Shown: piece by piece, positions 3,183 through 59,280 of the stretch
Layout: each line of letters opens with the position of its first letter
Position numbering within the stretch: position 1 is the stretch's first letter
From: Neocallimastix sp. 'constans'
Taxonomy: Eukaryota
Assembly (NCBI GenBank): GCA_050613775.1
Contig: JBODTK010000011.1
Coordinates: 1,116,001 to 1,180,000 of the forward strand
Length of the DNA: 64,000 nt
Direction of reading: 5' to 3'
The notes under the pieces: model-generated
Told to the model about the DNA's origin: nothing
Databases searched by the model: none
Seen by the model: only the letters and a program-made list of their open reading frames with translations
Position numbers and translations under genes: made by a program

Positions 3183-3297
3183 TATTCCTTAATTATTCAT
3201 AACAATTTGATAATTCATCAATGGATAATTTTCATTAACTAGCTATAGTTAATATTTTTTTATTATTTAATATTTTTTTTTTTTTATATTATTTATT

Positions 3298-3510
3298 CAA
3301 AAGTAATTAACTAACTATAATTACTTATTTATTATTTACTCAAAAGTAATTAATTAACTATAATTACTTATTTATTATTTACTCAAAAGTAATTAACTAA
3401 CTATAATTACTTATTTATTATTTACTCAAAAGTAATTAACTAACTATAATTACTTATTTATTATTTACTCAAAAGTAATTAACTAACTATAATTACTTAT
3501 TTATTATTTA
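3298..3510. repeat. ~43-bp tandem repeat x5 in leader of element B
   Basis: Unit CAAAAGTAATTAACTAACTATAATTACTTATTTATTATTTACT with internal inverted repeat AAGTAATTA/TAATTACTT. Confidence 0.85.
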
Positions 3511-3578
3511 TTACAGTTCATAATTCTATTTATATTACTTATTATTTTTTTCATTAATATAATTAATTCATTTACTTT

Positions 3579-3595
3579 TCCCGGATGAGCCCCCA
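3579..3595 (-). promoter_or_regulatory. Primer-binding site, tRNA-Pro
   Basis: TGGGGGCTCATCCGGGA, one mismatch to the classical tRNA-Pro PBS TGGGGGCTCGTCCGGGA. Confidence 0.88.
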
Positions 3596-3603
3596 AAATT
3601 TTA

Positions 3604-28684: not shown

Positions 28685-29692
28685 TTAAGTTTGTGTAATA
28701 TCAACGCTAATGTAATCTACGCTCTCTACACTACCTATATTATCATTAAATATATTGGTACTTTTAATATTGGTTCTAATTTTGCTCTCTTCAAATTTAT
28801 TATCGTCATAATTATCGTTTTTGGAATAGGTTAAAATATCAATATTATATTTAAAGAGAAGTGAATCACAAGCTAAAATTAAAATGAAACAAGTCTTTAT
28901 ACATTGAAATGGATTAATGTAACTACTCGGTATGCTATGAAAAGCTTCAGTAATTCCATTAAAAATGGATACCAGAATACTAATAAAATCCACAAATATT
29001 ATTATTATATAATTGGAACGTTTAATATAATAATCAACTTTATTTAATTTAGAATCTTCAGGCAATTTCCGGTTTCGCTTATATACATAATAAAAAATGG
29101 AAATACTACATAATAAATCTGATATGGCCAAGACAGCAAAGGAGGCCATATGACCATACTTTGTTTGTGGGGTCGTTAGGAGACCTTTTATCATACGTTC
29201 ATATCCGATGTAAAACCGACATCCCGAATAAAGAAAAAACAGTCCAATGATAGAATTCTTTACATATTTAACTATATTTCCGTTGGAAAAAGTTTTCATT
29301 TTATATAAATTTAATATAGGAATGGAATATTCCTTGATGATCCAAAATATTTCTGCAAATAAATAACTGGCTAGGTGAGGTCTTGGGGTGTTGATATCTG
29401 CTTCTCGACATACATAGGCGGTTGTTCCACCTTCAATTAACGTCCCACAGAACCCTGAAATCGCTGCACTTAATAAAATTTTCCAATATTTTCCTTTATT
29501 ACCACTGAAATACATTAAAATCACTAGTCCACATTGAATATAATTTGTATTAAATCCTGATTCCTTAAACTTTGAGCATAGCCCATCAAAAAAGTCTTTA
29601 TAGGGTTTTATAGGGCACATTCCCTTCGAGCTAAATCGATCAAATCCTTCTCCAGTAGGATATGGATAAACTGATAGAGGACTTGAAACCAT
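28685..29692 (-). CDS. 7-transmembrane receptor-like protein, paralog 4
   Basis: Same motifs as paralog 1; intronless ORF. Confidence 0.87.
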   Translation of the reverse strand: MVSSPLSVYPYPTGEGFDRFSSKGMCPIKPYKDFFDGLCSKFKESGFNTNYIQCGLVILMYFSGNKGKYWKILLSAAISGFCGTLIEGGTTAYVCREADINTPRPHLASYLFAEIFWIIKEYSIPILNLYKMKTFSNGNIVKYVKNSIIGLFFLYSGCRFYIGYERMIKGLLTTPQTKYGHMASFAVLAISDLLCSISIFYYVYKRNRKLPEDSKLNKVDYYIKRSNYIIIIFVDFISILVSIFNGITEAFHSIPSSYINPFQCIKTCFILILACDSLLFKYNIDILTYSKNDNYDDNKFEESKIRTNIKSTNIFNDNIGSVESVDYISVDITQT

Positions 29693-29840
29693 TGACTTAT
29701 TCTTATTCTTATTCTTATTATTATTATTATTATTATTAATTATTATTATTATTTTAATGATGACTGATGAAAAGATTGTTTTTTATTATTATTTTCTTCT
29801 AATAAAAATTGATGAAATTGATATTATTGTAATTGATGAA

Positions 29841-32158: not shown

Positions 32159-32340
32159 TGTTTAAAATAATGTGAAATATATGAAAAATAAGCTCTTTAA
32201 ACATATTGCAGTATAATAATATATAAGCCACAATGTAGTAATACAAAAACAATTAATTTAGGTTAATTAAGTACTAATAACCTCTTTATTATAAAATATA
32301 TTAATAAAGTTGACATAATTATAAACCTTTAAATTTATGC
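32159..32340 (+). mobile_element. Degenerate solo LTR related to the element C LTR
   Basis: AATATATAAGCCACAATGTA and ATAAAATATATTAATAAAGTTGACATAATTATAAA are reverse complements of segments of 39579-39813. Confidence 0.7.
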
Positions 32341-33621
32341 TTCTTAATAATAATACTACTAATTATAATAACTATCATAAATTTAATAGTTTATATAGTT
32401 TAATAAATCTAAGTTTAATCTTTTTTTTTTTTTTTTTTTTTTTTTTTTGAAGACAATTATTATACATATAAAAAATAAGAAAAAAAAAATTAAAAAATAA
32501 AATTTATAGGAAATATTTATTAAAACAGACGACATATATTATATTCTATTTTTTGATATATAAAAAATTTTTAATAAAAATTTAACTGAAAATTATAATT
32601 TGATTTAAATGAAAGAAAATACTAACACTGATAAAAGGAAAAATATAATAATAAAACTGATCATAAAATAATACTAAAAATATTGTATTAATAATAATAA
32701 TTAAATAAAAATTAATATAATAAACAATAAACCTGTTATTTCTATTTTTATGAATATAGAATGAAAAATTATCATATAAAGAAAAAAAAAATATAATAAA
32801 ATATAATAATAATATAACCCTTTTTATAATAATGTGTGTTGATATCAATAAAAATAATGATAATGAAGGTTAAATATTTATGATATAAAAAAAAATTATA
32901 ATAATAATATTTACAATAAAAATATGTTAACAATATATTTATATTAATAATAATAAAAAAGAGAGTATTTATAATGTTTAATGGTAACAAGTATAAGTTT
33001 AATATTTTAATAAACCTTACAATTTATTTATTTAATTTTAATTTAAGGAAAAAAATAACATAAAATAAATATATAAAATTAAATAAACAAAAACTTTAAA
33101 TTGTTTAAATTAATTTATTATTATATATATTTTTTTTTTTTAAGGGAAATATATTGGAAGAGGTTTTAAAAAAAATATATATATTTTTTTATATAGTTTG
33201 TTGAAAATTTAAAAAATTTAAAATATTTAATTTTTTTTTAATAAAACTTTTTTCCAATATGTATATAAAAATAATTAATAATAAATAATAAATAATTAAT
33301 AATAAATAATAAATAATAAATAATAAATAATAAATAATAAATAATAAATAATTAATAATAAATAATAAATAATAAATAATAAATAATAAATAATTAATAA
33401 TAAATAATAAATAATTAAATAATAAATAATAAATAATAAATAATAAATAATAAATAATAAATCATAAATAATAAATAATAAATAATAAATAATAAATAAT
33501 AAATAATAATTTTAATGATAATAAAATATTATAATTATAATAATAATAATAATTATAATAATAATAATAATAATAATTATAATAATAATAATAAAACTTA
33601 TTTTTAAAAAATATATATCAA

Positions 33622-39000: not shown

Positions 39001-39578
39001 TAAATAATTGAATAATAATAAATAATTGAATAATAATAAATAATTAAATAATAATAAATAATAAATAATAAATAATTGAATAATAAATGATAAATAATAA
39101 ATAATTGAATAATAATAAATAATAAATAATAAATAATAAATAATAAATAATAAATAATAAATAATAAATAATAAATAATAATAATAATAAATAATAATGA
39201 ATAATAATAATAAATAATAATAATAATAAATTTTAATTAAATGGTAAATCATTTTTAAAATAATAAAATCATGAATTATTATTGATTATTATTTTATTTA
39301 TTATATATAAATATGGTAGATATAAAGAATTAAGTCATTGGATGTCATTTTTATAATTTTTTATTTTATTATTATTATTATTGTAATATATTCATATTAA
39401 TATATTATTTTAATTTTCATTTTATATTAAATTATTTTATATATTATATTACTTTCTTTTATTAAATTTAATATATTTTGACGATTTTGCCACTCCACAT
39501 GTACAAAATAGAGAAGAAAAAATTGAAAAAAGGAAAGAAAAATAATTATTAATTAATAATAATAATAATAATAATAAT

Positions 39579-39813
39579 TGTTAAAAATCGTTAATTTAGG
39601 TTTTATAATTATGTCAACTTTATTAATATATTTTATGATTAAGAGTTACTTTGTGAGTTACTAGAGTAACTAATAACTAATGTTTAATTCTATTACAAAT
39701 TACATGCTTTTATACTTTTACATTGTGGCTTATATATTAATTTATCACAATATGTTTCAATACATTTTAATTATATTTAACTCCTATTTTCTCCTATTTC
39801 ACATATTCTAACA
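39579..39813 (-). repeat. 3' LTR of element C
   Basis: Identical by eye to 42827-43061. Confidence 0.93.
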
Positions 39814-41511
39814 TTCCCCCTTAAACCTAATTTTCTTGATATAAAAAATTTGGTTTACTGGTGAATATGTGTATATAAAATTATCCTATTCTATAATTTT
39901 AACTTGATTTAAATTAATCGACTAATTATTTCTATTCTAAACTAACATTTAATTTTACATGAATAAAATATTTTCACTTTATATTAATTTCTAACTCAAT
40001 ATGAATTTTTGTTAAAATAATTCTAAATAAATATGTAATCTAATAAATTCCCCCTAAACTAAGTATTTAATATTATTATTACACCATTGATATTGGATGT
40101 ATCTATGACATCTCTTATATTATTGTATGGTTTATATATACCATTTTGTATGACGGAAACCTTTCTCTTGAAGGGTGATATTATACCATCTATATTTGTG
40201 TGAATACCTCATATATTGGGTTTTTACATCACTTTTAATTATAATCGCTTTATAGATTAGCGTTAACTTTCATATATATTCGCTTTGTAGTTTTAGCGAT
40301 AACTATTAAAATAAATTGTTAATAATATTTGTTAATTGTATATTGGTGTACTTGATAAAATTTAATCTTGGGTGTTAAAATTGATTATATTTATAGTAAA
40401 TTATATTATTCTAGCCATTTAGACCTTTAGTAAATTATGTATGTAATATTATGTTAAGGTTCATAGTTTTAGTTTATTTCTCTTTATAGGCTAATTTTTG
40501 TTAAATATCTCTTATTGATTTAATTTTTATTCAAATTGGTTAGCTTTCATTTTAGTTTTTATTAATATTTTACGTTCACTATTCCCCCTAAAATCCGAAT
40601 TACTAAAAGAATTTTATATATTTGGATTTTCTCATCATTAAAATATTAATGATATAAGTTTAATAATTATGACTTCATGAATATTTTGCAATCAATAAGT
40701 ATAGCTTGTAGATGGAAAAATCTCATCTGTTTGTATATAACTCATGGTTATATTAATTATATTATACCATTCATTATGAAGGTTTTTGTTAAATTAATAT
40801 TAAATTAGTTATTATCTAAACCCATTTCACGCTAGGTTTAATAATACTATTATTATTATTATTATTATTGAATATACCCATTTCACGCTAGGTATTCAAT
40901 TTAAATAAATTGTATTTAGTTATTTTGAAGAATATGCTTATTTCACGCTAAGCATTTCTTTCATTAATATGTCATTCTCCTTTGAATATTTGTTGTTAAT
41001 TTATATGTATATATATACGCGTTTGATATGTATAAATACGCGTTAAAATAACTATATTTTAAATAACGAAAACCATTGTTTAATTTGTGATTGCTTAATT
41101 TATAATATATAATGTTAAATTGTAATTTGATATATTTATAGGGTAGAATATTATTTTTAGTTTAGTTTCTTTGTGCATTGAATAGAGTATTAAAGTTAAA
41201 TATGCTTTAAATTTCATCATATTTGTGTTAATTATCTTAATCTTTTAAACATCATGTAATGATAATTTGTTTTATCGTTCATTTTAAAATCTATATAAAT
41301 CTCTAATAGATTTTATCGTTTTATCATATGTTAGAGTAAATAATTATAAAATTATAATACATGATATATTACATATAATATAATTTTCTTCTATCTTCGT
41401 TGAATTTGTAATATTTATGTATACACGAAAATGTGTAGTAATTTTAATGTATATTTGTAAAATAGATATAATGAATTTCTTAATAAAGTTGATATAATTA
41501 AAATATCAAAT

Positions 41512-42126
41512 TTAATGAAGTAAAGTCATAGTAATAATAGTTAGGATAAGGAAAGTTATATTGACTTTAATAATGCTAGCACTATCCTCCATATACATAA
41601 CAACTTCACTTCCTTGGTCCAAATCATTTTCGCTATTTGTTGTATTTGTAACACTGGAAATTGAAGCATCACCTGGACAGTATTTATAATAATTATTTAC
41701 ACTACAAAAAGTCTTATTTTTAAGTGGTATATGTTTATCTCTCATAGCAGCTGAATGTGCCCATTCTCCCGGTTCCGCGCAATCTCTTCCTGGCTTAGTT
41801 TTTCCTTCTGCAGTAGCGGTATGACCTAAAGTTGCATGATAATAAAATGCATGTATTTGACCATCAGTCATTACTGATACCAATGTACCACCTTCACAAC
41901 CATCTGGAGTACCAATTGAATAACCTGTTGGTCTAGCCTCTTCATTTACAGCTGCTAGTAATTTTCCAATATCATCGCCTGTAATAGGCCAATTTACATC
42001 CAAAGTGAAGCCTCGACGTCTCAAAATATTATTTTTTATATCATTATTTTCTTTAAGAACATTAGTAGCACTTACTCCGAAATAAAATATAATAGCAAAT
42101 ATGATAATAAATTGAAGTTGTTTCAT
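41512..42126 (-). CDS. Secreted, probably GPI-anchored lactococcin-972-family bacteriocin-like protein
   Basis: Signal peptide, RRR dibasic site, EGGT..AFYYHATLGHTATAEG..PGEWAHS..NKTF resembling the Lcn972 pattern (Y.H....HSATV....G.WA), S/T linker and hydrophobic C-terminus. Confidence 0.78.
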   Translation of the reverse strand: MKQLQFIIIFAIIFYFGVSATNVLKENNDIKNNILRRRGFTLDVNWPITGDDIGKLLAAVNEEARPTGYSIGTPDGCEGGTLVSVMTDGQIHAFYYHATLGHTATAEGKTKPGRDCAEPGEWAHSAAMRDKHIPLKNKTFCSVNNYYKYCPGDASISSVTNTTNSENDLDQGSEVVMYMEDSASIIKVNITFLILTIITMTLLH

Positions 42127-42810
42127 TTTAATTTAAATACTTGGAATATTAATAATTTTATTCAAAGATAGTGGAATCATGTTATTATATATATCTTAGT
42201 TGTATAAATTAAGGTTATTAACATTTGTTAATAAAATTTTGAATTGTTTGTTTGTTTTCATAGTATCTTTCATATTATTACTGTTATTTGTACTCTATTT
42301 CTATTTCATATTCTGAATTATAATATTGTGATATAATTTTATTTATTGAATTTAAATTAGTTATTTAAGTATAAATTAAATTTCATTATTAATTTTAATT
42401 ATGATTGTATAAAGTACTAAAAAAAATATTTGTTTACATTTTCTAAATTTAAAATTTTAAAATTTCAAAATTTTAAATTTAAATTTAAATTCATTTATTT
42501 GAGTAATATTGTCTGAGTTTCAATTCATCATATAGATTTTACATTTCCTATATTAACTATTTATAACTATTTCTTGAATATTTAGAATATTTTAATTTCT
42601 CATTCGCATTGAATTTAACATTTCAATTTTGAAATTTCAATTTTGTCATTTCAAGATTTAGATTTCAAAAAATTTTATTCAGCGAGGATTAGGATTTCAG
42701 TAGATTTCTCCTTTAGTATTATTTATTGTCCGGCAATGTTTTTATATTCTGCTAGGTAGCTCAATTTTCAAAATAGTAAATAACGCTATTTGGTTTTCTC
42801 GAATAGAGTC

Positions 42811-42826
42811 CATGAGACTCTTAATC
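42811..42826 (-). promoter_or_regulatory. Primer-binding site complementary to the tRNA-Lys(CUU) anticodon arm (half-tRNA primer)
   Basis: Plus strand CATGAGACTCTTAATC equals tRNA-Lys(CTT) positions ~25-40 and directly abuts the LTR. Confidence 0.72.
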
Positions 42827-43060
42827 TGTTAAAAATCGTTAATTTAGGTTTTATAATTATGTCAACTTTATTAATATATTTTATGATTAAGAGTTACTTT
42901 GTGAGTTACTAGAGTAACTAATAACTAATGTTTAATTCTATTACAAATTACATGCTTTTATACTTTTACATTGTGGCTTATATATTAATTTATCACAATA
43001 TGTTTCAATACATTTTAATTATATTTAACTCCTATTTTCTCCTATTTCACATATTCTAAC

Positions 43061-43061
<1 letters not shown>
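42827..43061 (-). repeat. 5' LTR of element C
   Basis: Identical by eye to 39579-39813. Confidence 0.93.
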
Positions 43062-43123
<62 letters not shown>

Positions 43124-44052
43124 TTTTAGAAGGTAAAAATGGGTTTTATGATAAATGTTTATTATGTATTAATAACTAACCTCAGATTTACAATTAAAGT
43201 AAAACCAGTTCTATTTATACAAGAACTGTGGCTAAATTTAGATACATGTTAATTTATTTAATTAATGTATTACATAATATGATTCGTATATTCATATTAA
43301 TTTAATCTAATTTAACATTTATTTTTATATCATAAATTTCTACTTTTAACATTCCCCCTCAAACTTGATTTTCTGTTTATACAAAAATCTAGTTTGCTTC
43401 AAAGAAGTTTAAATTTATTTAGTTTTAAATTATATATGCCGACTACGATGAATTTTTTTCATACAAGTTTATTTTTTGTCCCTTCATTGATAATTTATAT
43501 TTGCTTTTTGGTTTAGCAATAACCATAATTTATATGTTTTGTGGATTAGCATTAACCATATTATTTTAGAGGTGACATTCTTGTTCGGTCTTACTAATTT
43601 CACATTTATTTTATGTGGGGGTAATGTCCTTTCCTTTTTGTAATCATTGAGCTAGTTATGAAGGCTAGTAGTTCTTCTAAAATTCCGGCTATTATATCTG
43701 TTGTAATATAGATTTCACTTCTTTATATTTTTTGATTAAGAGTCTTTTGTAATTACCATTTTGAAATCTTCTATTACTTGTCAGCTTCTTTCGCTCAGTT
43801 GATTAGAGTCTTGAGACTCTTAATCTTTTAGAAGGTAAAAATGGGTTTTATGATAAATGTTTATTATGTATTAATAACTAACCTCAGATTTACAATTAAA
43901 GTAAAACCAGTTCTATTTATACAAGAACTGTGGCTAAATTTAGATACATGTTAATTTATTTAATTAATGTATTACATAATATGATTCGTATATTCATATT
44001 AATTTAATCTAATTTAACATTTATTTTTATATCATAAATTTCTACTTTTAAC

Positions 44053-44053
<1 letters not shown>
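43124..44053 (-). mobile_element. 930-bp TRIM-like LTR element
   Basis: 228-bp direct repeats at 43124-43351 and 43826-44053; PPT GAGGGGGAA next to 43351; PBS 43793-43825 matching the tRNA-Lys 5' half; inserted in (AAT)n. Confidence 0.88.
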
Positions 44054-44102
<49 letters not shown>

Positions 44103-44134
44103 GTAGTTGTAACTATTAATAATGATATTGATAA

Positions 44135-44177
<43 letters not shown>

Positions 44178-44436
44178 ATTATATTTATGAAATATGAAAT
44201 AATATTCATTGGTGAAGTATCAATAATTGTATTGAATAAAAGATATAATTTATTATTGTTTCTGTTATTATTAATTACTTTTGCTATTTACTATTATCAT
44301 CTTTTTCCATCTTTTAATATTAATTAAAATTATTTATTATCTTTTATAAGCAAATAAACAAAAAAATCAAATAATATCAATGATAAATATAATAAATAAT
44401 AAATAAATAAATAAATAATATAAAATAATTGAATAA

Positions 44437-45117: not shown

Positions 45118-45831
45118 ATGAAATTTGCTCAAATTGCTTTAGGTTTAGTCGCTGCTACTGCTGTTCTTGCTGATACTGTCTCCCTTACTGGTGACTGTAA
45201 GAAGGCTTTCGATGACTTCGAAGAATGTGGTAAGACTGAAGCTGCTAATGTTGAAGAATTCATTAAGATTTACCAATCTGACAAGTGTCAAAACTTATAC
45301 AAGGACCCAATTGCTGCCCTTGCTAAGTGTGGTGATTTAGATGATGAAACTAAGGACAAGTTAATTGCTGATGTTAAATTCTCTCAAGCTTACAATATTT
45401 TATACACTGCTAAGACTGAAGATGGTAAGGCTTGTCCATTATACAGAAACAACAAGGCCGATAAGGTTAAGGACACTTGTGCCTCTAAGGCTTGTACCAC
45501 TGCCTCTGTTGATGCTTACAAGCTCTTCGTTGAAGGTAAGAAGTTAAACAAGAACAAGGAATCATCTATTGCCACTTACGAAGAAATCTTAAAGGGTTTA
45601 CAAGAATGTGCTCCAGCTGATGCTAATGCTGATGCTGCTGCTAACAACTCCACCTCTACTGTTGCTGCTAACAGTACTGAAGCCAATGGTGCTGCTGCTG
45701 CTGCTAACAATGGTACTCAAGTTTCCGTTAATGCTACTGATGCTAATGCCAATGCTAATGCTCAATCTGGTGCCTCTACCTTAAAGTACACTATGGCTTT
45801 AGTTGTTGCTGCTGTTTACTTACTTTTCTAA
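45118..45831 (+). CDS. Secreted Cys-rich, probably GPI-anchored surface protein
   Basis: Signal peptide, 8 Cys, A/N/S/T-rich stalk with N-glycosylation sequons, SGA omega-like site and hydrophobic tail; strong codon bias (GCT, AAG, GGT). Confidence 0.9.
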   Translation: MKFAQIALGLVAATAVLADTVSLTGDCKKAFDDFEECGKTEAANVEEFIKIYQSDKCQNLYKDPIAALAKCGDLDDETKDKLIADVKFSQAYNILYTAKTEDGKACPLYRNNKADKVKDTCASKACTTASVDAYKLFVEGKKLNKNKESSIATYEEILKGLQECAPADANADAAANNSTSTVAANSTEANGAAAAANNGTQVSVNATDANANANAQSGASTLKYTMALVVAAVYLLF

Positions 45832-48549: not shown

Positions 48550-48631
48550 CGTCACCTGCAGGACTCGAACCTGCGCTCCCAAAGGGAAATGGCTTAGCAG
48601 GCCACCGCGTTAACCACTCCGCCAAAGTGAC
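48550..48631 (-). tRNA. tRNA-Ser(GCT)
   Basis: GTCACTT/AGGTGAC acceptor, TGGCGGAGTGG A box, TGGC-CTGCTAA-GCCA anticodon arm, long variable arm, GGTTCGAGTCC. Confidence 0.95.
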
Positions 48632-48646
48632 TACGTTGGTTGTTAG

Positions 48647-49681
48647 TGATAAAGAATGAATTAATAACCTTTATTTTATTATTAATAATTCTTTACTAAA
48701 TTGTACTTTCCTATATTCTTCATAACCTAAACCTCATTGTAAATTTAATTTATTTTGATATAAATTAATTTTAACTTGTAAATAATGTAAATAAATTTTA
48801 ATTAATTACTTTATTGTTATATTATTAAATATATGTATATATTAAAATACAATTATAAATATTAAAATTATACTTTTAAGATACTAAATTATTAAAACTA
48901 TTAATTAAATATTATTATAAAAATTATTATAAAATTATTAAAATTATTAATATTATTAATTAAATATTATTCTAAAAATTATTATAAATTATTAATATTA
49001 TAAAATTATTAAAATTATTAAATATTATTATAAAAATTTATATATTATAACTATTAAATATTATTATAAAATTATTAAGATTATTAATTAAATTTATTAT
49101 TAAAAATTATTATTAAAAATTTTTACTTATTATAAAAATTACTATTTAAATATTATCAAATTTATTAATTAAATATTATAAAAATTTTATTTTATTTTGA
49201 AAATAATTACAAGTATTATTTAAAATAATTAAAGATTATTAAATTTATTATATTAATCTTTAAAAACAATTTATTTAACTTAAAAATATCAAAGAAAATA
49301 GTAAAAACTATTTTCTATATATTTATTTTATAATTATTTTTAATTAAATTATATTTGAATATTATATTATTATATTTATAAAAATTAAAACAAAAATGAA
49401 TTATTGATATAAAATTAATTCAATAATTCTATAAAATTACTTAAATTATAAACAATTAATTATACTTTAAATTTATAAAAAAATATAAATATTGTAACAA
49501 TTTCTTAAAAAAAATTAAATATGTGTACTTTAAATAAAAAAAAAAAAAACTTTTATATTAATAAAAAAAATAAATAATTTTTAATAAAGAAAGATTTATT
49601 TTTTTTTAAAATCAAAGCAGGGTAATACCCGTCCCCCCCTGCTTGATTTTAAATATCTAAGTGTCAACCCCGAGTCTACCA
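48647..49681 (+). repeat. 5' LTR of element D
   Basis: TGATAAAG...TACCA; same length as and apparently identical to 56191-57225. Confidence 0.94.
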
Positions 49682-49685
49682 AAAT

Positions 49686-49703
49686 TGGTGGAGATATCGG
49701 GGA
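49686..49703 (+). promoter_or_regulatory. Primer-binding site, tRNA-Ala
   Basis: TGGTGGAGATATCGGGGA, 4 nt after the LTR; complement of a tRNA-Ala-type 3' end. Confidence 0.8.
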
Positions 49704-50048
49704 AGAAGAAGACCAAGAAGAAGACCAAGAAGAAAACCAAGAAGAAAACCAAGAAGAAGACCAAGAAGAAGACCAAGAAGAAAACCAAGAAGAAGACCAA
49801 GAAGAAGACCAAGAAGAAGACCAAGAAGAAAACCAAGAAGAAAACCAAGTGGAAGAAGACCAAGAAAAAGAAAACCAAGAAGAAAACCAAGTGGAAGAAG
49901 ACCAAGAAAAAGAAAACCAAGAAGAAGACCAAGAAGAAGACCAAGAAGAAAACCAAGAAGAAAACCAAGAAGAAAACCAAGAAGAAGACCAAGAAGAAGA
50001 CCAAGAAGAAGACCAAGAAGAAGAGACCAAGAAGGAGAAGACCAAGAA
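49704..50048 (+). repeat. 12-bp purine-rich tandem repeat GAAGAA(G/A)ACCAA in leader of element D
   Basis: More than 25 units directly after the PBS. Confidence 0.9.
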
Positions 50049-50147
50049 GGAAATTGGAACTACTAGGACTTATTTTTTTTTTGGAATTATGAGAATAATT
50101 TTTTTTAAATTAAATTTAATAGAATTAAATTAAATTAAATTAAAAAC

Positions 50148-50186
<39 letters not shown>

Positions 50187-50220
50187 CACACTTTTACATT
50201 CATCATCATATTTTTTTTTA

Positions 50221-50754
50221 TTGTTATCGGTTTTTGTGTTGTTGTTGTGGTTGGTGTTGTTGTTGTGATTGTTGTTGTTGTGGTAGTAATAAAAATTAAC
50301 ATCAGTTTTATTTGGTCTTCGCGTGCTCCAAATAAAACTATATACTGAGTGTACTGCGTACTAAGCAGTTATAGATAATTCTATAATTGCGAGTGGTTTA
50401 ATCAGGTGTCTGGAGAGGGGCCGGTTACTAACTAATCGAACCCCGATTAGATATAGCGGTAAATACTGTTGGGAAGCAGAAATTACCCTATAGATCACCC
50501 ATTATACGTTCAACACGGTTTGGGTGCTCCTCCACTTGACTCAGGCAAATTCACTTAGTATACCGAAATACTAAGGTCCCTCTGCGTGGTCGGCAGTTGT
50601 AATAGATAGCGGTTTTTCAAGTTGTATTAGGTTTGTTAATTTACCTTGTTTTTAATTAAGTTTATTTGTTTTTTTTAAGTTGTAATTATATAAACTTAAT
50701 AATAATTGTAATTGTAATTGTAATTGTAAATATTGTAATAATAACCGATAACAA
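50221..50754 (+). other. Putative structured RNA domain in the 5' leader of element D
   Basis: GC-enriched island with several helices, closed by TTGTTATCGGTT/AACCGATAACAA. Confidence 0.6.
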
Positions 50755-51164
50755 ATAAATAAATAAAAAAAAAAAAAAAAAAAAAAAAAATATTAATTCT
50801 TGTGTTTTTAAATATTTTTAATTGCTATATTAAAAAAAAAAAAAATTTTTTTTGTAAATAATTGTATATATTTTTTTTATTTAAGTAAAGATAAACGAAA
50901 GGGGTTATTAGCTTGAAAGAATAGTGAACACTCCAACTAGTTTATTAATTTATATTTATTCTAGTGTCCAGGAGGGGGAGTACGGGTGTATATAGCAAAA
51001 TTAAATATACACTAGCCGGAAACGTCTCACTAGAGATATAAATTACTTAAATATATAATTTTAATTGTAAATAAATAAATAAATAAATAAAAATATAGCA
51101 ATTAAATAATTAATAAAACAATTTTTTTATTTTATTTTTTTTAAAAGTGTGTTTTTTTTTTAAA

Positions 51165-52121
51165 ATGAGTACAATTAATTTTAAAGATTTAAAAAAGGAA
51201 CTTAAGGATATTGAAAAAATATCCAAAGAAAATTTAGATGTTAAAACTTGGAAGTCTGATTTAGAGCTTTGGATAAAGCTTGAACATGTTGAAGACTCCA
51301 AGATTATATTTTATGCCTGTGTTTTAACCTCAATTGGTGAAACCAGGAAAGTCATCCAAGAATTAATGGATGATAATGATAAAGATGATGATAGTGATAG
51401 TGATGATGATGATGATGATAATGATGATGATGATGATAATTATAAGGATATTGATGATGAAAATGAGGATGATGATAATGAAGAAGATAAAGAAATTGAT
51501 AAAAAGAATAAGGCTTATCCTTCCCTTAATAGAATTGTAAAAGCTATAGAAGAATTTTATGGCATTAGGGAGGATCAAAATAATTTATTAAGAGAGCTAC
51601 GTGCTCTAAGAATTAAGAGGAATGAAAGAATCAAAGATTTTAATATTAAGTATAAAACTTTATATTTAAAATTAAATAAAAAGAAAAGAAGTCAGATAAG
51701 TGTTTTAGATTACACAGACTCCATTGAAAACAATGTTGAAGCCTGGAAACGTCTAACCTTATTTGATAACATTTCTCTGTCAAAAGCCTTTAAAATTGCT
51801 GAAAAAGCAGATAGGTTAAATTATATGGGTAGTAATCAAAGAAGACATCCTTCTACCCCTTCACCTTCTGCAAATACATCTTCTTTTAGTAATAGAGTTA
51901 ATTTTCATCCTCCTATTAAAAATAAGTTAGAACAAAAAGTTAATATTAAACCTAAAGAAGATAATGACATAGAGGAATTAACAAGAAAAATGAGAAGTTT
52001 AACAATAAAGGCTTGTTATTTCTGTAAAGAACCAGGTCATTATCAAAACAATTGCCCAAAGTTGAGAGCAATTGTTGAGAAAAATAGGAAGGAAATTAGA
52101 AACAATAAACGTTTAAATTGA
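51165..52121 (+). CDS. gag: Gag with acidic insert and CCHC knuckle
   Basis: CYFCKEPGHYQNNC; ATG at 51165. Confidence 0.92.
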   Translation: MSTINFKDLKKELKDIEKISKENLDVKTWKSDLELWIKLEHVEDSKIIFYACVLTSIGETRKVIQELMDDNDKDDDSDSDDDDDDNDDDDDNYKDIDDENEDDDNEEDKEIDKKNKAYPSLNRIVKAIEEFYGIREDQNNLLRELRALRIKRNERIKDFNIKYKTLYLKLNKKKRSQISVLDYTDSIENNVEAWKRLTLFDNISLSKAFKIAEKADRLNYMGSNQRRHPSTPSPSANTSSFSNRVNFHPPIKNKLEQKVNIKPKEDNDIEELTRKMRSLTIKACYFCKEPGHYQNNCPKLRAIVEKNRKEIRNNKRLN

Positions 52122-52164
52122 GTAATGGGATAAGAAGCTCTCCCATACTTAATAAAGCAGCTTC
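52112..52164 (+). promoter_or_regulatory. -1 frameshift signal with predicted H-type pseudoknot
   Basis: T TTA AAT, 6-nt spacer, stem 1 ATGGGA/TCCCAT, stem 2 GAAGCT/AGCTTC. Confidence 0.82.
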
Positions 52165-55100
52165 ACTTAAATATCAAAAAGAAATTAAAAATTCTCGTCT
52201 TTCTAATATTGAAGAAACTCCTGCTAATAAAAGGGTGGTTAATAAAAAGAAAGTTGATTATTTAGTAGGAGCATCTAAACGTAAAATTTATGATGTTAAT
52301 AATGATGAAGGTAGTGCAGAGAAAAGGATTCATAAGTCGTTGAAGGAGAATCCTAAACCTATAATAACTCCTGCATTACGAAAACAGAAAGAACGAGAAG
52401 TAAAAGAAAATAATATAAGTAATAAAATTGTTAAACAAATTAAACCATCTATTCTAGCTCAACCACGAATTGAAAAAGAAAAAGAGATTGAAAGACAAAT
52501 TCGTGATAATGAAAGAGCTAGTAATAGTAATACTAATTATAGTAATAATCATAGTAATGATAATAGTAATGATAATATTAATAATAATTCATTAGTGAAT
52601 GATGAAGTTATTATAAATAATGTAAATAATGATAAAAGAAAGAATAAAAATTTAATGAAAGAAAATAATGATAATAAAAAAAGTATTGTGAAGGAGAATA
52701 ATAAAGTAATTGATTTAACAAAGGTGTTAATTAGTAAAGATAAAGATACTCAAAAAGAAAATAAAAGTTCTAGAGTATCTAGGAAAATTAAGATGCAATC
52801 GGGGGAAGAGGAATATGATATTCTTAAAGATTTAAATTCTGCCCATTGCAATATTACTTTTGGACAGTTATTGGATGCTGCTCCAAAATTAAGATATAAG
52901 GTGTCACAGGGTATTAAATTGGATAGGGACCAATCTAATATCTCTGGGGTGTTGGATAATGTGTCAGCCACGACTGTGGTCGTTAATAACATAGACCACA
53001 CTTATAAAAGTAAAGGTAACGAACCATGTGAAGAGGATATTGCCATGGTTGATGTTACAGTTGAAGGTGTTTCGGGGAAGGCTTTAATTGATTCATGTAG
53101 TAATTTAAGTATAATTACTCAACAATTTTTAGATAAGCTTCCGTCCGAATATGAACCTATTGATATTAGTCGTGGCAGAATTAGGTTGGCAACTAAGAAT
53201 GATGATTACTCGGAAGGTTATATCATTCGGGTGCCAGTAAAGATTAATAATCTTGTATTAATGGTTAATTGTAGAATAGTAGAAAAGGAGGATCCTTTTT
53301 ACGATATTCTAATTAACTTAAAAACCCAAATTGATTATAATTTGTTTATCCACCCCATTTTATATAGTTTGTGTCAAATTACTCCTGAGGGAGTAATTGA
53401 CGTTATTGCACCTATTAATAATGATTATGAAGATGAAGAAAAGTTGTTGTGTATGATTAAGGCTTTGGATGAGGATTCCAAAAAGAATGATTTAAAGAAA
53501 ATTGAAGGATTATCCCCAAAGCAATATATTCATCATGAAATTTTCCTAAATACTTTAAACGAAAAATATAAAGATGAAATAATTAAAATTCTGGAGGAGA
53601 ACTTAGAAATAGTTGCTACTTCTTCAGAAGAATTAACACCTTCTGATCTTCCTCCACATAAGATTAATTTAATTCCTGGTGCGAAACCAGTTAAGCAAAG
53701 GTGCTATAGATTAGTTAAATTTAAGTCGGATATACTTAAGGAGGAATTAATTAAATTAATTAATAAGAAATTAATTGAACCTTCTTGTTCCGAATGGTCA
53801 TCGCCAATAGTGTTAGTACCGAAGAAGAACGGTAAATGGCGATTATGTATTGATTATCGTAAGGTTAATGATTTAACAGTTAAAGATTCTTATTCATTAC
53901 CTTACATTGATGAGATATTTGATAGTTTAGATGGGGCACAGATTTTTACAACAATGGATCTTTACTCTGGTTATCATCAAATTTTGATGGATGAGGAAAG
54001 TGTAGAAATTACCACCTTCACCACAAAATTTGGTAACTACCAATTCAAGGTTATGCCTTTTGGTTTAACCGGAGCCCCAGCTACATTTCAAAGGGAAATG
54101 AATAGGATTCTTTTCCCATTTATAGGAAAGTTTGTTTTTAACTTTATAGATGATATTTTAATATACTCTAAGAGTATAGAAGAACATATAAGCCACATTA
54201 GGCAAGTGTTGGAAGTATTTCGCCAACACAAATTAAAAATTAACATTGAAAAATGTGCCTTTATGCAGACTGAAGTAGAAGTCTTAGGTCATAAGGCATC
54301 AGTGAAAGGTTTAAGTCCCCAGGATAGCAAAATTAAGGCTATCAAGGAGTGGGTAGCACCTGTTGATGTTCATGAATTACGATCTTTTCTTGGAGCAGTA
54401 GGATATTATAGAAACTTTATTGATAAATATGCCCAAATCTCTGCTCCTTTATGTAAATTATTAAGAAAGAATGTTAAATATAAATGGAATAATGAACATC
54501 AACAAAGTTTTGATCTGTTAAAAGAAAAGTTAATAAATGCTCCAATTTTAAAATATCCAAGTTTTAATCAAAGGTTTATAATTAGAACGGATGCTTCCTA
54601 TGAAGGTATTGGAGGAGTATTACTCCAAGAAGATTTAGAAACCAAAAAGGAACATCCAGTTCATTATATAAGTAGAAGTTTAAGTAAAGCCGAGAAAAAT
54701 TATGGCATTACTGACTTGGAAGGAGCTGCATTAATTTATTGTATTACTAAGTTGAAATCTTATATATTAGGAAATCCTAATAAAACAGTAGTAATAACAG
54801 ATCATAAACCTTTAATCAGTTTCTTTAAAAATAAGGAACCTAATAATGCTAGGCAAGCAAGGTGGTGCTTAACTGTTAGTACCCTTGGTGTTGAAATTCA
54901 ATATCAAATGGGTAAGAAAAATGTGTTAGCCGATGCATTATCTAGGATGAAGAAAAGAGATGATTCCGTGGTATTGGCAACTAAGTTAACTTCAAAGGAA
55001 GAAGAAGAGTTGCTTTCTAAAACTATTAAAGACTTTATAAATGAAAAATTTGTTACGATAGATGGTGAAGATTATTTTGTTGATGGTAATGACTATCGTA

Positions 55101-56167
55101 AATTAATTACTGATCAAACGGAAAGAGTAAAACTTATTTTAGAAGCCCATAAGATAGGTCATGAGGGATATTATAAGACTTATCAAAGGCTTCGTAAAAG
55201 TTTTTATTGGAATAATATGGTGATGGATATTAAAAGAGTGGTGCAAAGTTGTGACAAGTGTCAGTTGAATAGGTCACAACCATATCCAGAACCTACAGAA
55301 AATATTCCAACTAAAGTAGAAGGTCCTTTTATACATTTGGGTTTAGATATTATTGGACCTTTGATTAAAACGAAGAATAATAATCAATATATTATGGTTG
55401 TGGTGGATTACTTCACCAAATGGGTTGAAGCAGAACCCACGGAAAATATAACATCACAGGATGTGATTAAGTTCTTAATTAATGTGTTTGCTCGTCATGG
55501 TGTTCCACAGGTAATAACAACTGACAATGGTGTTCAGTTCACCTCGGACATGACGAAAATATTTTTAGATCTCTATGATGTATATGTGAAGTTTATTTCC
55601 ACATATCATCCTGAAAGTAATGGACTTACGGAAAACCGTAATAAAGAGATCGGCAAGTTATTGAGGTTGTTGGGTTCTAAGAATAAGGATTGGGATGAAG
55701 TTTTACCATCCGCCTTATGGGCTCTTAGAACTACCAAAAATAAGGTAACAAAACATTCAAGTTTTGAGTTGGTTTATGGTAGGGAAGATCAGCAGCCTTT
55801 TGATATTGCTGCTAGACCTACCAAGGATATTAATAAGTCATCGGATGAAGTGTTGTTAGAAAAATTTATAAATCATTACCGATGGACTTTAGAAGCAGCC
55901 GAAAATGTTAAAAATGCAAATAAGTATTGGGCTGCTAGAAGAGAGGAAAAGAATAGTTTGAATGAAGGAAAAAGAATTAGGGAAGGTGATTTAGTTCTAG
56001 TTAGAAATTTTTCAAGAACTAAACTAGAACCTTATTTTGTTGGTCCTCTTAAAGTTATAAAAAAACAATTTAATACGGTTACCTTGGCTGATCCAAATTC
56101 TGGAATTCAAATGAATAGGAATGTTCATTTGAAGAATATAGTCAAGTATAACTCAGCTTCGATGTAG
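52118..56167 (+). CDS. pol: Pol polyprotein (PR, RT, RNase H, integrase), expressed as Gag-Pol
   Basis: LIDSCS protease, WRLCIDYR, MPFGL, FIDD, TDAS, TDHKPL, HHCC, TDNGVQF, GPLK; gypsy domain order; no chromodomain. Confidence 0.96.
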   Translation: MSNGIRSSPILNKAASLKYQKEIKNSRLSNIEETPANKRVVNKKKVDYLVGASKRKIYDVNNDEGSAEKRIHKSLKENPKPIITPALRKQKEREVKENNISNKIVKQIKPSILAQPRIEKEKEIERQIRDNERASNSNTNYSNNHSNDNSNDNINNNSLVNDEVIINNVNNDKRKNKNLMKENNDNKKSIVKENNKVIDLTKVLISKDKDTQKENKSSRVSRKIKMQSGEEEYDILKDLNSAHCNITFGQLLDAAPKLRYKVSQGIKLDRDQSNISGVLDNVSATTVVVNNIDHTYKSKGNEPCEEDIAMVDVTVEGVSGKALIDSCSNLSIITQQFLDKLPSEYEPIDISRGRIRLATKNDDYSEGYIIRVPVKINNLVLMVNCRIVEKEDPFYDILINLKTQIDYNLFIHPILYSLCQITPEGVIDVIAPINNDYEDEEKLLCMIKALDEDSKKNDLKKIEGLSPKQYIHHEIFLNTLNEKYKDEIIKILEENLEIVATSSEELTPSDLPPHKINLIPGAKPVKQRCYRLVKFKSDILKEELIKLINKKLIEPSCSEWSSPIVLVPKKNGKWRLCIDYRKVNDLTVKDSYSLPYIDEIFDSLDGAQIFTTMDLYSGYHQILMDEESVEITTFTTKFGNYQFKVMPFGLTGAPATFQREMNRILFPFIGKFVFNFIDDILIYSKSIEEHISHIRQVLEVFRQHKLKINIEKCAFMQTEVEVLGHKASVKGLSPQDSKIKAIKEWVAPVDVHELRSFLGAVGYYRNFIDKYAQISAPLCKLLRKNVKYKWNNEHQQSFDLLKEKLINAPILKYPSFNQRFIIRTDASYEGIGGVLLQEDLETKKEHPVHYISRSLSKAEKNYGITDLEGAALIYCITKLKSYILGNPNKTVVITDHKPLISFFKNKEPNNARQARWCLTVSTLGVEIQYQMGKKNVLADALSRMKKRDDSVVLATKLTSKEEEELLSKTIKDFINEKFVTIDGEDYFVDGNDYRKLITDQTERVKLILEAHKIGHEGYYKTYQRLRKSFYWNNMVMDIKRVVQSCDKCQLNRSQPYPEPTENIPTKVEGPFIHLGLDIIGPLIKTKNNNQYIMVVVDYFTKWVEAEPTENITSQDVIKFLINVFARHGVPQVITTDNGVQFTSDMTKIFLDLYDVYVKFISTYHPESNGLTENRNKEIGKLLRLLGSKNKDWDEVLPSALWALRTTKNKVTKHSSFELVYGREDQQPFDIAARPTKDINKSSDEVLLEKFINHYRWTLEAAENVKNANKYWAARREEKNSLNEGKRIREGDLVLVRNFSRTKLEPYFVGPLKVIKKQFNTVTLADPNSGIQMNRNVHLKNIVKYNSASM

Positions 56168-56190
56168 CTTGAGTTTTAGAGGGGGCATCA

Positions 56191-57225
56191 TGATAAAGAA
56201 TGAATTAATAACCTTTATTTTATTATTAATAATTCTTTACTAAATTGTACTTTCCTATATTCTTCATAACCTAAACCTCATTGTAAATTTAATTTATTTT
56301 GATATAAATTAATTTTAACTTGTAAATAATGTAAATAAATTTTAATTAATTACTTTATTGTTATATTATTAAATATATGTATATATTAAAATACAATTAT
56401 AAATATTAAAATTATACTTTTAAGATACTAAATTATTAAAACTATTAATTAAATATTATTATAAAAATTATTATAAAATTATTAAAATTATTAATATTAT
56501 TAATTAAATATTATTCTAAAAATTATTATAAATTATTAATATTATAAAATTATTAAAATTATTAAATATTATTATAAAAATTTATATATTATAACTATTA
56601 AATATTATTATAAAATTATTAAGATTATTAATTAAATTTATTATTAAAAATTATTATTAAAAATTTTTACTTATTATAAAAATTACTATTTAAATATTAT
56701 CAAATTTATTAATTAAATATTATAAAAATTTTATTTTATTTTGAAAATAATTACAAGTATTATTTAAAATAATTAAAGATTATTAAATTTATTATATTAA
56801 TCTTTAAAAACAATTTATTTAACTTAAAAATATCAAAGAAAATAGTAAAAACTATTTTCTATATATTTATTTTATAATTATTTTTAATTAAATTATATTT
56901 GAATATTATATTATTATATTTATAAAAATTAAAACAAAAATGAATTATTGATATAAAATTAATTCAATAATTCTATAAAATTACTTAAATTATAAACAAT
57001 TAATTATACTTTAAATTTATAAAAAAATATAAATATTGTAACAATTTCTTAAAAAAAATTAAATATGTGTACTTTAAATAAAAAAAAAAAAAACTTTTAT
57101 ATTAATAAAAAAAATAAATAATTTTTAATAAAGAAAGATTTATTTTTTTTTAAAATCAAAGCAGGGTAATACCCGTCCCCCCCTGCTTGATTTTAAATAT
57201 CTAAGTGTCAACCCCGAGTCTACCA
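56191..57225 (+). repeat. 3' LTR of element D
   Basis: Direct repeat of 48647-49681, followed by TTAG. Confidence 0.94.
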
Positions 57226-57797: not shown

Positions 57798-57941
57798 GGA
57801 AAGCAAGATCAAATAAATTAATATGAAAATAATAAGAAAATTATAATTACAATATAATTATCATAATAGAATACTTTTTTTTATATAATCTTTCATTTAT
57901 TTTTCTTTTTTTTTTTATCAAGTAATTATTTTTTTTTTACA

Positions 57942-59258
57942 ATGTTTGACGCTACTAAACTGCAAAGGAAGCTACCACATCTGGCTGATTATGGAAAAGA
58001 TGTAGACAGCTGGATGACCGACTTTGTTAAGATAATGGAGCTTTATGATATAATGGAACCAAGGCGAATTTTTATTTGGGTAAAGGAAGCTGTGGAAGAA
58101 GATATTCAAGGAGCGTTACAATCATTGGTAGTCAGACGAGGGGATGAAATGAGATATCCCACATTTAAAGAAATTCAAAATACAATTGAAGAACATTTGC
58201 ACATTACAGAAAATGATAAATGTGCAGTTCTCAAAACAATACAAATAAATCAAGAAGAATCAATTAAAAAGTTTAATTACAGATATAAAAAATTATATAA
58301 TAAACTCAGTTTAGAATATAGAAGACTTATATCTGTAAAGGACTACACGAATGCTATTAGCTCCCGTGTATTTCCATGCTCAAGAGTTATGGTTGCAGAA
58401 TGTGATACAATAAATGAGGCGTGTAAAATTGCAGAAGTAGCTGAGGAGACTGAAAAAGAAATAGCAAATATAAATCAAAGAAATGAAATTAATAATATGA
58501 GGAATCATATTATGTTTACTCAGAATCAGCCGGATAATATCTTACTAATGCGACATCCATTCTACGAAAACTTACAGTTAAATCAATTACCTATGAACCA
58601 TAATAATAATATATTCCAGGAAAGAAATAATTGGAATTCTAAATCTAGATTATGGAACAATAATAATAATTTCAGAAATTCAAATTATGTATATCACATG
58701 AGTAATCCATATAATAATCCAAATTATTACTTGAATAATAAAAATGATATTAATAAAATGAACAATGGAAATTTTACAAATCGTTATAATAGTAGATTTA
58801 ATTATAATAAATTTTGGCACAGTAATAATATTAATCAATATATGAATAATAATAACAAATATAATATGAACAATATGAATAATAATCAGCCATCCAATGA
58901 AATAAGAGACAATAAGATGAATCATTATTTAAACAATTTGAACAACAATATTAATATAACAAATAATGATAAAGAACATGACAACCAAATGTTTAACAAT
59001 AATAAATTTAATACAAATAATATGATTCAATCCTTTAATTATCAAAATGGAAATAATCACAACAATGGGATAGAAAATAATAATGTCAGTAATACATTAG
59101 TAACTAATAAAAACTCAATTAACAACAATAATAACAACCATGTAAATTGTTACCGTTGCACAATGAATGGACATAGAGCTTCAGAATGTCCTTATACATT
59201 TAAGCAATTGGCTGAATTGGAAGAAAAAGGATTGCTCAATAAACATTTAAACCAATAG
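57942..59258 (+). CDS. gag: Gag with long Asn-rich region and CCHC knuckle
   Basis: CYRCTMNGHRASEC; capsid-like N-terminus similar to the other gags. Confidence 0.92.
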   Translation: MFDATKLQRKLPHLADYGKDVDSWMTDFVKIMELYDIMEPRRIFIWVKEAVEEDIQGALQSLVVRRGDEMRYPTFKEIQNTIEEHLHITENDKCAVLKTIQINQEESIKKFNYRYKKLYNKLSLEYRRLISVKDYTNAISSRVFPCSRVMVAECDTINEACKIAEVAEETEKEIANINQRNEINNMRNHIMFTQNQPDNILLMRHPFYENLQLNQLPMNHNNNIFQERNNWNSKSRLWNNNNNFRNSNYVYHMSNPYNNPNYYLNNKNDINKMNNGNFTNRYNSRFNYNKFWHSNNINQYMNNNNKYNMNNMNNNQPSNEIRDNKMNHYLNNLNNNINITNNDKEHDNQMFNNNKFNTNNMIQSFNYQNGNNHNNGIENNNVSNTLVTNKNSINNNNNNHVNCYRCTMNGHRASECPYTFKQLAELEEKGLLNKHLNQ

Positions 59259-59280
59259 ATGGGAGAAGGACAACTTCCAT
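59246..59280 (+). promoter_or_regulatory. -1 frameshift signal
   Basis: T TTA AAC, 6-nt spacer, hairpin ATGGGAG/CTTCCAT; -1 frame open into the 59342 ORF. Confidence 0.82.

What the first reader, a model, noticed from the sequence alone, without database searches (positions are those of the whole stretch)
39579..43061. LTR retroelement whose sole cargo is a lactococcin-972-like bacteriocin with eukaryotic secretion and GPI signals
Seen: identical 235-bp LTRs, PBS and PPT enclose no gag/pol, only one intact, intronless, sense-oriented 204-aa ORF. The ORF has a signal peptide, an RRR (Kex2-type) site, a domain with the Lcn972 pattern (YYH....HTAT...G...PGEWA), four Cys, an S/T linker and a GPI-like tail. 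Known: lactococcin 972 is a Firmicutes lipid-II-binding bacteriocin. Inference: a bacterial antimicrobial gene was acquired by the fungus, adapted for surface display or shedding, and is being amplified by a young non-autonomous retroelement, i.e. a mobile antibacterial cassette.
Basis: partly seen in the sequence, partly recalled or inferred. Interest (0 to 1): 0.92.

Follow-up and report, generated by a model that had tools for sequence, protein, structure and literature searches.

The report
Gut-fungus retroelement carrying bacteriocin-like gene
A gag/pol-less LTR retroelement in an anaerobic gut fungus encloses one intact gene whose product is predicted to fold like the bacteriocin lactococcin 972 and is likely displayed on the cell surface; such genes were already reported in these fungi, but their riding in a retroelement appears new, and both antibacterial activity and selective amplification remain untested.

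Summary
The anatomy is real. Identical 235-bp LTRs, a half-tRNA-Lys(CTT) primer site, a polypurine tract and an ATAAT target duplication enclose one intact 204-aa ORF and no gag/pol. The ORF passes Pfam's Lactococcin_972 cut-off narrowly (22.4 vs 22). Its predicted fold (pLDDT 84) best matches formosin D and Lcn972 (Z 8.3, 6.8).

(1) The gene family is already published in gut fungi (Swift 2021) and trichomonads (2025). Its nearest relatives are fungal or unnamed gut-metagenome proteins, not bacterial genome proteins. The signal-peptide/GPI-like layout is shared with Piromyces and Caecomyces, so acquisition and adaptation are old. (2) The backbone is a high-copy family whose members mostly lack this gene. 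The ORF sits near single-copy depth in 2 of 3 putative DNA runs and about 6-fold in the third. (3) The domain is neutral to acidic, and killing is untested.

Verdict: a new variant of LTR gene capture, with a long-retained, probably antibacterial cargo.

The parts
42827..43061 (-). 5' LTR, 235 bp, TG..CA
   Evidence: identical to 39579-39813
42811..42826 (-). Primer-binding site complementary to the anticodon arm of tRNA-Lys(CTT); half-tRNA priming as in Ty1/copia hemiviruses
   Evidence: hemivirus priming from nucleotide 40 in PMC1181622 passages
42127..42810 (-). 5' internal leader; the 700 nt between LTR and ORF hold 16 upstream ATGs, so translation likely needs an internal promoter or splicing
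   Evidence: the consequence is inference
41345..42267 (-). Cargo slot, 923 nt (ORF plus 141 nt upstream and 167 nt downstream); a sister copy has 820 other letters here
   Evidence: tables 5 and 8 (one contig each in X1, X13, X5)
41512..42126 (-). Intact intronless ORF, 204 aa: predicted signal peptide (about 1-20), RRR 36-38, Lcn972-like domain with N-terminal helix/strand extension (40-150), acidic S/T/N linker, hydrophobic GPI-like tail
41695..41892 (-). Residues 79-144, superposing on Lcn972 (2LGN): 64 of 66 residues, rmsd 2.4, Z 6.8
   Evidence: predicted model
40824..40950 (-). Three spaced copies of an 11-nt backbone motif, also found three times behind the paralogue in L002
   Evidence: none in the rest of the window
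40049..40589 (-). Two internal polypurine-tract-like motifs (40583-40589 and 40049-40055)
39814..39823 (-). Polypurine tract abutting the 3' LTR
39579..39813 (-). 3' LTR, 235 bp
39574..39578 (.). ATAAT target-site duplication (partner at 43062-43066) inside an (AAT)n tract
43124..44053 (-). Neighbouring 930-bp cargo-free LTR element (TRIM-like): identical 228-bp LTRs, same tRNA-Lys primer site and polypurine tract, same ATAAT flanks, 62 bp away
32164..32347 (+). Degenerate solo LTR of the same family, about 69% identical

Best explanation
This is a single gag/pol-less LTR element with identical LTRs and a half-tRNA-Lys primer site, likely moved in trans by a Ty1/copia partner, and its one intact gene encodes a predicted Lcn972-fold protein that is likely secreted, Kex2-trimmed and GPI-anchored and probably acts on the walls of neighbouring gut bacteria. 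The gene family likely entered gut fungi long ago, ultimately from bacteria and possibly through another gut eukaryote, and gained its secretion and anchor signals before Neocallimastix, Piromyces and Caecomyces split. An ancestor of this element family likely captured one such gene, and a minority of copies have kept it intact long enough to diverge to 36% identity while others decayed or lost it. This copy inserted recently, into an AAT microsatellite, and is probably transcribed. Shown: anatomy, profile match, paralogue in a homologous backbone, sister copy with another middle. Predicted: fold, signal peptide, GPI. Inferred: copia partner, age, transcription, function.
For: Anatomy. Pfam PF09683 22.4 bits vs cut-off 22; 26 of 26 members of A2 hit it at E up to 0.1; the A2 profile's best PDB hit is 2LGN, E 0.0066. 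Model pLDDT 83.9; best 2 of 48,161 chains are formosin D (Z 8.3, rmsd 3.1, 77 aligned) and Lcn972 (Z 6.8, rmsd 2.4, 64 aligned). The same signal/dibasic/domain/hydrophobic-tail layout occurs in Piromyces P0071 and in P0079/P0080, the latter matching Swift's Caecomyces cluster 5. L002: DNA downstream of the 207-aa paralogue scores 123 against the element versus a mean of 41 and a maximum of 59 in 106 control tiles; landmarks are collinear (+518/565/618 and +936 versus +562/622/678 and +924). Decayed paralogues P0002, P0013 and P0017 lack signal or tail. RNA run X2 holds exact contigs over ORF and non-coding interior at depth 49-81, against 2.1 for the sister contig and 6 for the left-flank bin. 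Trichomonad Lcn972-like genes are induced by E. coli and their expression impaired E. coli growth (PMC12612818 section 13). One relative, P0174, is fused to a peptidoglycan-binding domain.
Against: The Pfam score is at the threshold; NCBIfam TIGR01653 does not hit this protein, though it hits 29 of 38 members of A3; Foldseek gave no match at E up to 0.001, and Z under 8 can be a common arrangement. The core is neutral (net 0) and the mature domain acidic (net -3, pI 5.9), whereas 10 of the 12 relatives scored carry +2 to +7; the two 207-aa paralogues carry -1 and +1. L002 is too short to include an LTR, and its upstream DNA scores no better than controls (59 versus a control maximum of 104). 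dN/dS between the two intact paralogues is about 0.6 and unreliable at this distance. No copia gag/pol partner is in the window: the retroelement ORFs scanned are Ty3-like. RNA libraries can contain DNA. Sixteen upstream ATGs argue against simple translation from an LTR-started RNA.
Confidence: 0.55

Rival explanations
1. Mobile antibacterial cassette: the element is actively copied or forms circles or tandem arrays, and the extra gene dosage is selected when the fungus competes with bacteria.
For: In run X1 the ORF contig is at 6.4 times the single-locus baseline (range 3.6-9.7), while family-backbone bins scale alike in all three runs (1269/1248/1211, 440/474/461, 234/210/186). L001 joins 3' interior, one LTR and 5' interior, as a 1-LTR circle, tandem array or terminally redundant RNA would. 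The LTRs are identical. The identical P0002 protein has two accession numbers in N. lanati.
Against: The ORF is at 0.6 and 0.9 times baseline in X13 and X5. The tool warns that contig depth is not copy number, and the kind of these three runs is only guessed as DNA. An L001-type junction also arises by assembly collapse of identical LTRs. No second insertion site of this exact element was seen. The cargo-free neighbour also has identical LTRs, so youth needs no cargo.
Confidence: 0.2
2. Passive passenger or changed function: the gene was swept up by read-through capture and rides neutrally, or it now serves as a surface adhesin or sensor for bacteria rather than a killer.
For: Most family copies lack it (backbone depth hundreds of times baseline versus about 1 for the ORF). 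Several paralogues are truncated or frameshifted. The net charge is neutral to acidic. A GPI anchor would hold the domain away from lipid II unless it is shed (inference).
Against: Two paralogues at 36% identity both keep open frames with signal and tail although the surrounding non-coding DNA aligns only in patches. The family's nearly invariant Tyr, two His, Gly, Trp and Ala are kept. The 207-aa paralogue was reported transcribed (PMC8106346).
Confidence: 0.22
3. Chance flanking of a host gene by two solo LTRs, or an assembly artefact.
For: The family is very abundant, and a solo LTR lies at 32164-32347. Polishing can homogenise LTRs.
Against: The primer site and polypurine tract each lie on the inner side of the correct LTR; the non-coding interior is itself high-copy family backbone; a sister copy shares both slot borders; exact contigs over the ORF exist in 4 of 4 runs laid.
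Confidence: 0.03

Closest known systems
Lactococcin 972 family bacteriocins (Pfam PF09683, TIGR01653; PDB 2LGN; formosin D, PDB 9HKJ)
   Same: Profile match, conserved Y-x-H...H-TAT and G-x-WA positions, predicted beta-sandwich superposing on 64 of 66 Lcn972 residues.
   Different: About 22% identity; extra N-terminal helix and strand, four Cys, RRR site, acidic linker and hydrophobic tail; neutral to acidic; no ABC transporter or immunity gene alongside (that bacterial context is recalled, not from a call).
Putative bacteriocins of anaerobic gut fungi (Swift et al. 2021, PMC8106346)
   Same: Same family: scaffold 363 (128 aa) matches P0012, of the 65%-identical cluster; scaffold 388 (207 aa, transcribed) matches P0016; Caecomyces cluster 5 matches P0080 (printed stretches).
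   Different: The window's paralogue is neither of the two N. californiae sequences. The main text has no occurrence of 'transpos' or 'retrotranspos'.
Trichomonas and metamonad AMP-Lcn972 (PMC12612818)
   Same: Eukaryotic, laterally acquired Lcn972 domain, some with signal peptide; a T. foetus homologue is in my search (P0100).
   Different: C-terminal domain with no GPI-like tail; no retroelement link in the passages and section I read; separate branch in my tree.
Ty1/copia hemiviruses (copia, Ty5, 1731, Osser) and non-autonomous TRIM/LARD derivatives
   Same: TG..CA LTRs, 5-bp target duplication, polypurine tract, priming from a tRNA cut in the anticodon arm.
   Different: No gag/pol; tRNA-Lys(CTT) rather than the initiator Met tRNA used by Ty5; carries a cellular gene; both local copies sit in AAT microsatellite.
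LTR-mediated gene capture or retroduplication (e.g. rice and sorghum captured genes, PMC3726574, seen as search listing and abstract start only)
   Same: An intronless cellular gene inside an LTR element.
   Different: The cargo here is whole, of likely bacterial ancestry, and apparently kept through long divergence in a fungus.

Membership tests
Non-autonomous LTR retrotransposon | Two direct LTRs with TG..CA ends | tested here: met
Non-autonomous LTR retrotransposon | Primer site inside the 5' LTR and polypurine tract inside the 3' LTR | tested here: met
Non-autonomous LTR retrotransposon | Target-site duplication | tested here: inconclusive
   ATAAT both sides, but within (AAT)n where one phase in three matches by chance
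Non-autonomous LTR retrotransposon | No gag/pol coding capacity | tested here: met
Non-autonomous LTR retrotransposon | Dispersed multicopy family | tested here: met
   Backbone: 1,357-1,405 contigs laid in each putative DNA run, many at 85-99% identity; solo LTR at 32164-32347
Non-autonomous LTR retrotransposon | This cargo-bearing copy present at several insertion sites | tested here: inconclusive
   ORF depth 6.4, 0.6 and 0.9 times baseline; no genome held
Ty1/copia hemivirus lineage | Half-tRNA priming ending in the anticodon arm | tested here: met
Ty1/copia hemivirus lineage | Integrase-before-RT pol order and RT phylogeny of the autonomous partner | not testable with these tools
   The element has no pol; no partner in the window; fungal genomes are not searchable here
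Lactococcin 972 family | PF09683 above gathering score | tested here: met
   22.4 vs 22 whole protein; 23.8 for the domain; marginal
Lactococcin 972 family | TIGR01653 match | tested here: not met
   No hit for this protein; 29 of 38 members of A3 hit at E up to 0.01
Lactococcin 972 family | Lcn972 beta-sandwich fold | tested here: met
   Predicted model; Z 6.8, rmsd 2.4, 64 of 66 aligned, rank 2 of 48,161
Lactococcin 972 family | Cationic mature peptide (recalled trait) | tested here: not met
   Core net 0; residues 40-150 net -3, pI 5.9
Lactococcin 972 family | Lipid II binding and killing of Gram-positive bacteria | not testable with these tools
   Needs bench assay
GPI-anchored surface protein | N-terminal signal, S/T-rich linker, small-residue omega site, hydrophobic C-terminal tail | tested here: inconclusive
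   Hydropathy peaks 3.1 and 2.6; tail and small residues present and conserved in layout across homologues; no dedicated predictor available

The most novel reading that the evidence does not exclude
Neocallimastix keeps a long-lived family of microsatellite-targeting, half-tRNA-primed LTR elements with an exchangeable cargo slot that holds diverse Lcn972-like surface antibacterials, and copies of it are amplified within cultures or strains under bacterial competition: a eukaryotic counterpart of a bacteriocin plasmid.
Probability: 0.2. Interest if true: 0.87.

Novelty: new variant of a known kind. Interest (0 to 1): 0.62.

Why it matters
Gut fungi hold their ground though vastly outnumbered by bacteria, and their putative bacteriocins have no known mechanism or route of spread. 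A retroelement that carries and diversifies an intact bacteriocin-fold gene offers both. It also shows recent insertions of a primer-defined LTR family in a fungus with few genetic tools, and gives a concrete, testable candidate for a surface-anchored antibacterial relevant to rumen ecology.

Tried and rejected
No whole genome was held, so no genome-wide BLAST. The single protein found no PDB sequence match. The ESM Atlas gave no usable feature hit and a low-confidence model. No close relative by tblastn in viral contigs (0 of 50 candidate stretches) or in 185,579 GTDB genomes (0 of 247 stretches); these pattern searches find only close relatives, so they do not exclude a bacterial donor. P0078 found nothing in plasmids or phages. 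Four weak Clostridium plasmid hits (E 0.04-0.1) were rejected as likely chance: the one inspected lies in a serine protease gene. LTR patterns found nothing in viral contigs or GTDB. Rfam found nothing in 39300-44200. No earlier scan notes. dN/dS was inconclusive. The tree (37 rows, P0017 and other near-copies left out, no named bacterial rows) puts the seven fungal-type rows with P0078 (93/90) next to twelve unnamed 100-107-aa proteins (joint branch 99/95); fungal monophyly was neither shown nor rejected (p-AU 0.52), and no donor can be named. I considered an LTR-to-ORF depth ratio to tell tandem from dispersed copies and dropped it, because the LTR contigs of X13 and X5 differ from this LTR. 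The 5' LTR, primer site and most of the leader were not covered by read laying, so the right-hand junction is unchecked in runs. The sister copy's 820 letters could not be retrieved.

Full report
Setting. The window is very AT-rich eukaryotic DNA with Ty3-like retroelements. Named homologues of the ORF come from Neocallimastix, so the host is very likely an anaerobic gut fungus of that genus (inference). No whole genome was available.

The element. 39579-39813 and 42827-43061 are identical over 235 nt, with TG..CA ends. On the minus strand the 16 nt following the 5' LTR pair exactly with tRNA-Lys(CTT) and stop 2 nt beyond the anticodon loop in 4 of 4 ARAGORN-called viral tRNA genes. Those genes were found with this motif, so only the tRNA call and the end position are independent. 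Priming from nucleotide 40 of a half tRNA marks the hemivirus group of Ty1/copia elements (PMC1181622, passages). A polypurine tract abuts the 3' LTR. Both ends are flanked by ATAAT inside an (AAT)n tract. A second element of 930 bp lies 62 bp away, with identical 228-bp LTRs, the same primer site (14 nt exact) and tract, and no cargo. A 69%-identical solo LTR lies at 32164-32347. The inside of the main element has one ATG ORF of 70 aa or more and nothing long enough for gag or pol. It is one non-autonomous element.

The cargo. The 204-aa protein scores 22.4 bits on Pfam Lactococcin_972 (cut-off 22) but does not hit TIGR01653. A 26-sequence family profile finds Lcn972 (2LGN) as its best PDB sequence, E 0.0066. 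The AlphaFold model of residues 40-152 has pLDDT 83.9. Foldseek ranks formosin D first at E 1.4e-3, with no hit at 0.001. The wide search ranks formosin D (Z 8.3) and Lcn972 (Z 6.8, rmsd 2.4, 64 of 66 residues) first and second of 48,161 chains. An N-terminal helix and strand precede the shared core. Hydropathy supports a signal peptide and a C-terminal hydrophobic tail, with RRR at 36-38; no dedicated predictor was run. The core is neutral and the mature domain acidic, unlike 10 of 12 scored relatives, which counts against unchanged Lcn972-like killing. GC at third positions is 0.16, below the two in-frame host ORFs checked (0.27, 0.30), so the gene shows no compositional sign of a recent bacterial origin.

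The family is old and partly published. Swift et al. 2021 (PMC8106346; main-text passages, supplement 1 part 1 of 3, supplement 2 parts 1 and 3 of 7) reported Lcn972-like putative bacteriocins in N. californiae and C. churrovis and proposed transfer from bacteria or protozoa. Their printed stretches match P0012 (cluster 65% identical to this protein), P0016 (36%; reported transcribed) and P0080. Their trees are pictures that I could not see, and 7 of 19 supplements were not searched. Piromyces P0071 and P0079/P0080 share the signal/dibasic/domain/tail layout, and more such proteins appear among 165 representatives found by the profile (23 of the 150 listed were read), one fused to a peptidoglycan-binding domain. 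Trichomonads have laterally acquired Lcn972 genes induced by E. coli (PMC12612818, passages and section 13). The nearest non-fungal-type relatives are unnamed 100-108-aa proteins without signal peptide, on short contigs; a gut-protist origin is my guess. No close relative was found in GTDB genomes. Bacterial ancestry is therefore likely but remote, and the eukaryotic signals predate this element copy.

Is the cargo tied to the element family? L002 carries the 207-aa paralogue. Its downstream DNA matches the element's 3' interior (score 123 versus mean 41, maximum 59, in 106 control tiles), with the triple 11-mer and the internal purine motif at collinear distances. L002 is too short to show an LTR and its upstream DNA does not match. 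In 3 of 3 putative DNA runs one contig matches both borders of 41345-42267 but holds 820 other letters between them: a sister copy with another middle, perhaps the truncated P0002-type paralogue (inference). So at least two, possibly three, diverged middles occupy this backbone.

Is it being amplified? I laid 4 of 24 listed runs on 39300-42400 (13 of the 24 are on record as RNA, 20 studies). As baseline I took the median depth of 9 of the 15 joints shown in table 5, leaving out those absent from a run, seen in two contigs, at very high depth, or marking the sister copy. Backbone bins then stand at about 1,200, 450 and 200 times baseline, alike in all three putative DNA runs; summed overlapping contigs inflate these numbers, but the family is clearly large. 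The ORF contig stands at 6.4, 0.6 and 0.9 times baseline. Most family members therefore lack this gene, and it is near single-copy in two runs. The excess in X1, and contig L001, which joins 3' interior, LTR and 5' interior, fit circles, tandem copies or new insertions, but also RNA content or assembly collapse. In RNA run X2 exact contigs cover ORF and non-coding interior at depth 49-81, against 2.1 for the sister contig, a hint of full-length transcription and not proof.

Mechanism. Most likely a copia partner supplies Gag and Pol in trans, reverse transcription is primed by a tRNA-Lys half molecule, and integration favours AAT tracts (2 of 2 full elements here). The cargo is likely made from an internal promoter or processed RNA, since 16 ATGs lie upstream, enters the secretory path, is trimmed at RRR and is GPI-anchored or shed, presenting an Lcn972 fold to bacterial walls. 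Rivals: a selected, amplifiable cassette (0.2), a neutral or repurposed passenger (0.22), chance flanking (0.03).

Novelty. Ten library searches (listings and abstract starts) and term look-ups in two surveys of early-diverging fungi (10.1101/2021.12.02.471044 and PMC8778642; passages; 0 occurrences of lactococcin or bacteriocin) showed no report linking these genes to LTR elements. The library lacks most subscription papers. Gene family known, LTR gene capture known, their combination apparently new: a new variant of a known kind, interest 0.62.

Noticed in passing
window 43124-44053: Cargo-free 930-bp LTR element with identical 228-bp LTRs, both ending in AA instead of CA, sharing primer site and polypurine tract with the main element; its complementarity to tRNA-Lys appears to extend into the D arm.
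   Followed up: partly
window 32164-32347: Old solo LTR of the same family, opposite orientation.
   Followed up: partly
window 9300-10358, 17713-18891, 22284-23315, 28688-29782 (all minus): Four paralogous intronless ORFs of 344-393 codons, 65-74% DNA identity, hydrophobic, no Pfam hit at 0.001; possibly a receptor family.
   Followed up: partly
window 48647-57225: Long direct repeats of about 1 kb (48647-49681 and 56191-57225) around a Ty3-like gag (51117-52118) and pol (52109-56164); a second Ty3-like element follows at 57870-63836. A tRNA-Ser gene at 48550-48631 lies just upstream.
   Followed up: partly
window 223-3841: Gag-like ORFs (223-1161 weak Ty3 capsid; 2133-3188 no Pfam) with direct repeats at about 1604-1842 and 3603-3841: possibly a gag-only LTR element.
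   Followed up: no
window 45118-45831: 237-aa ORF with signal peptide, Cys-rich domain, Ala/Asn linker and hydrophobic tail; no significant Pfam hit.
   Followed up: partly
P0174, P0161, P0173, P0131, P0117: Lcn972-like domains with C-terminal membrane anchors, a tandem two-domain form, and one fusion to a peptidoglycan-binding domain; unnamed, Asn-rich, gut-fungus-like.
   Followed up: partly
P0119, P0140, P0147, P0157: Proteins with 2-5 tandem Lcn972-like domains, source unnamed.
   Followed up: no
P0019-P0028, P0060-P0077: Large family of 100-107-aa cationic Lcn972-like proteins without signal peptide, almost all on contigs under 3 kb; possibly from gut protists.
   Followed up: partly
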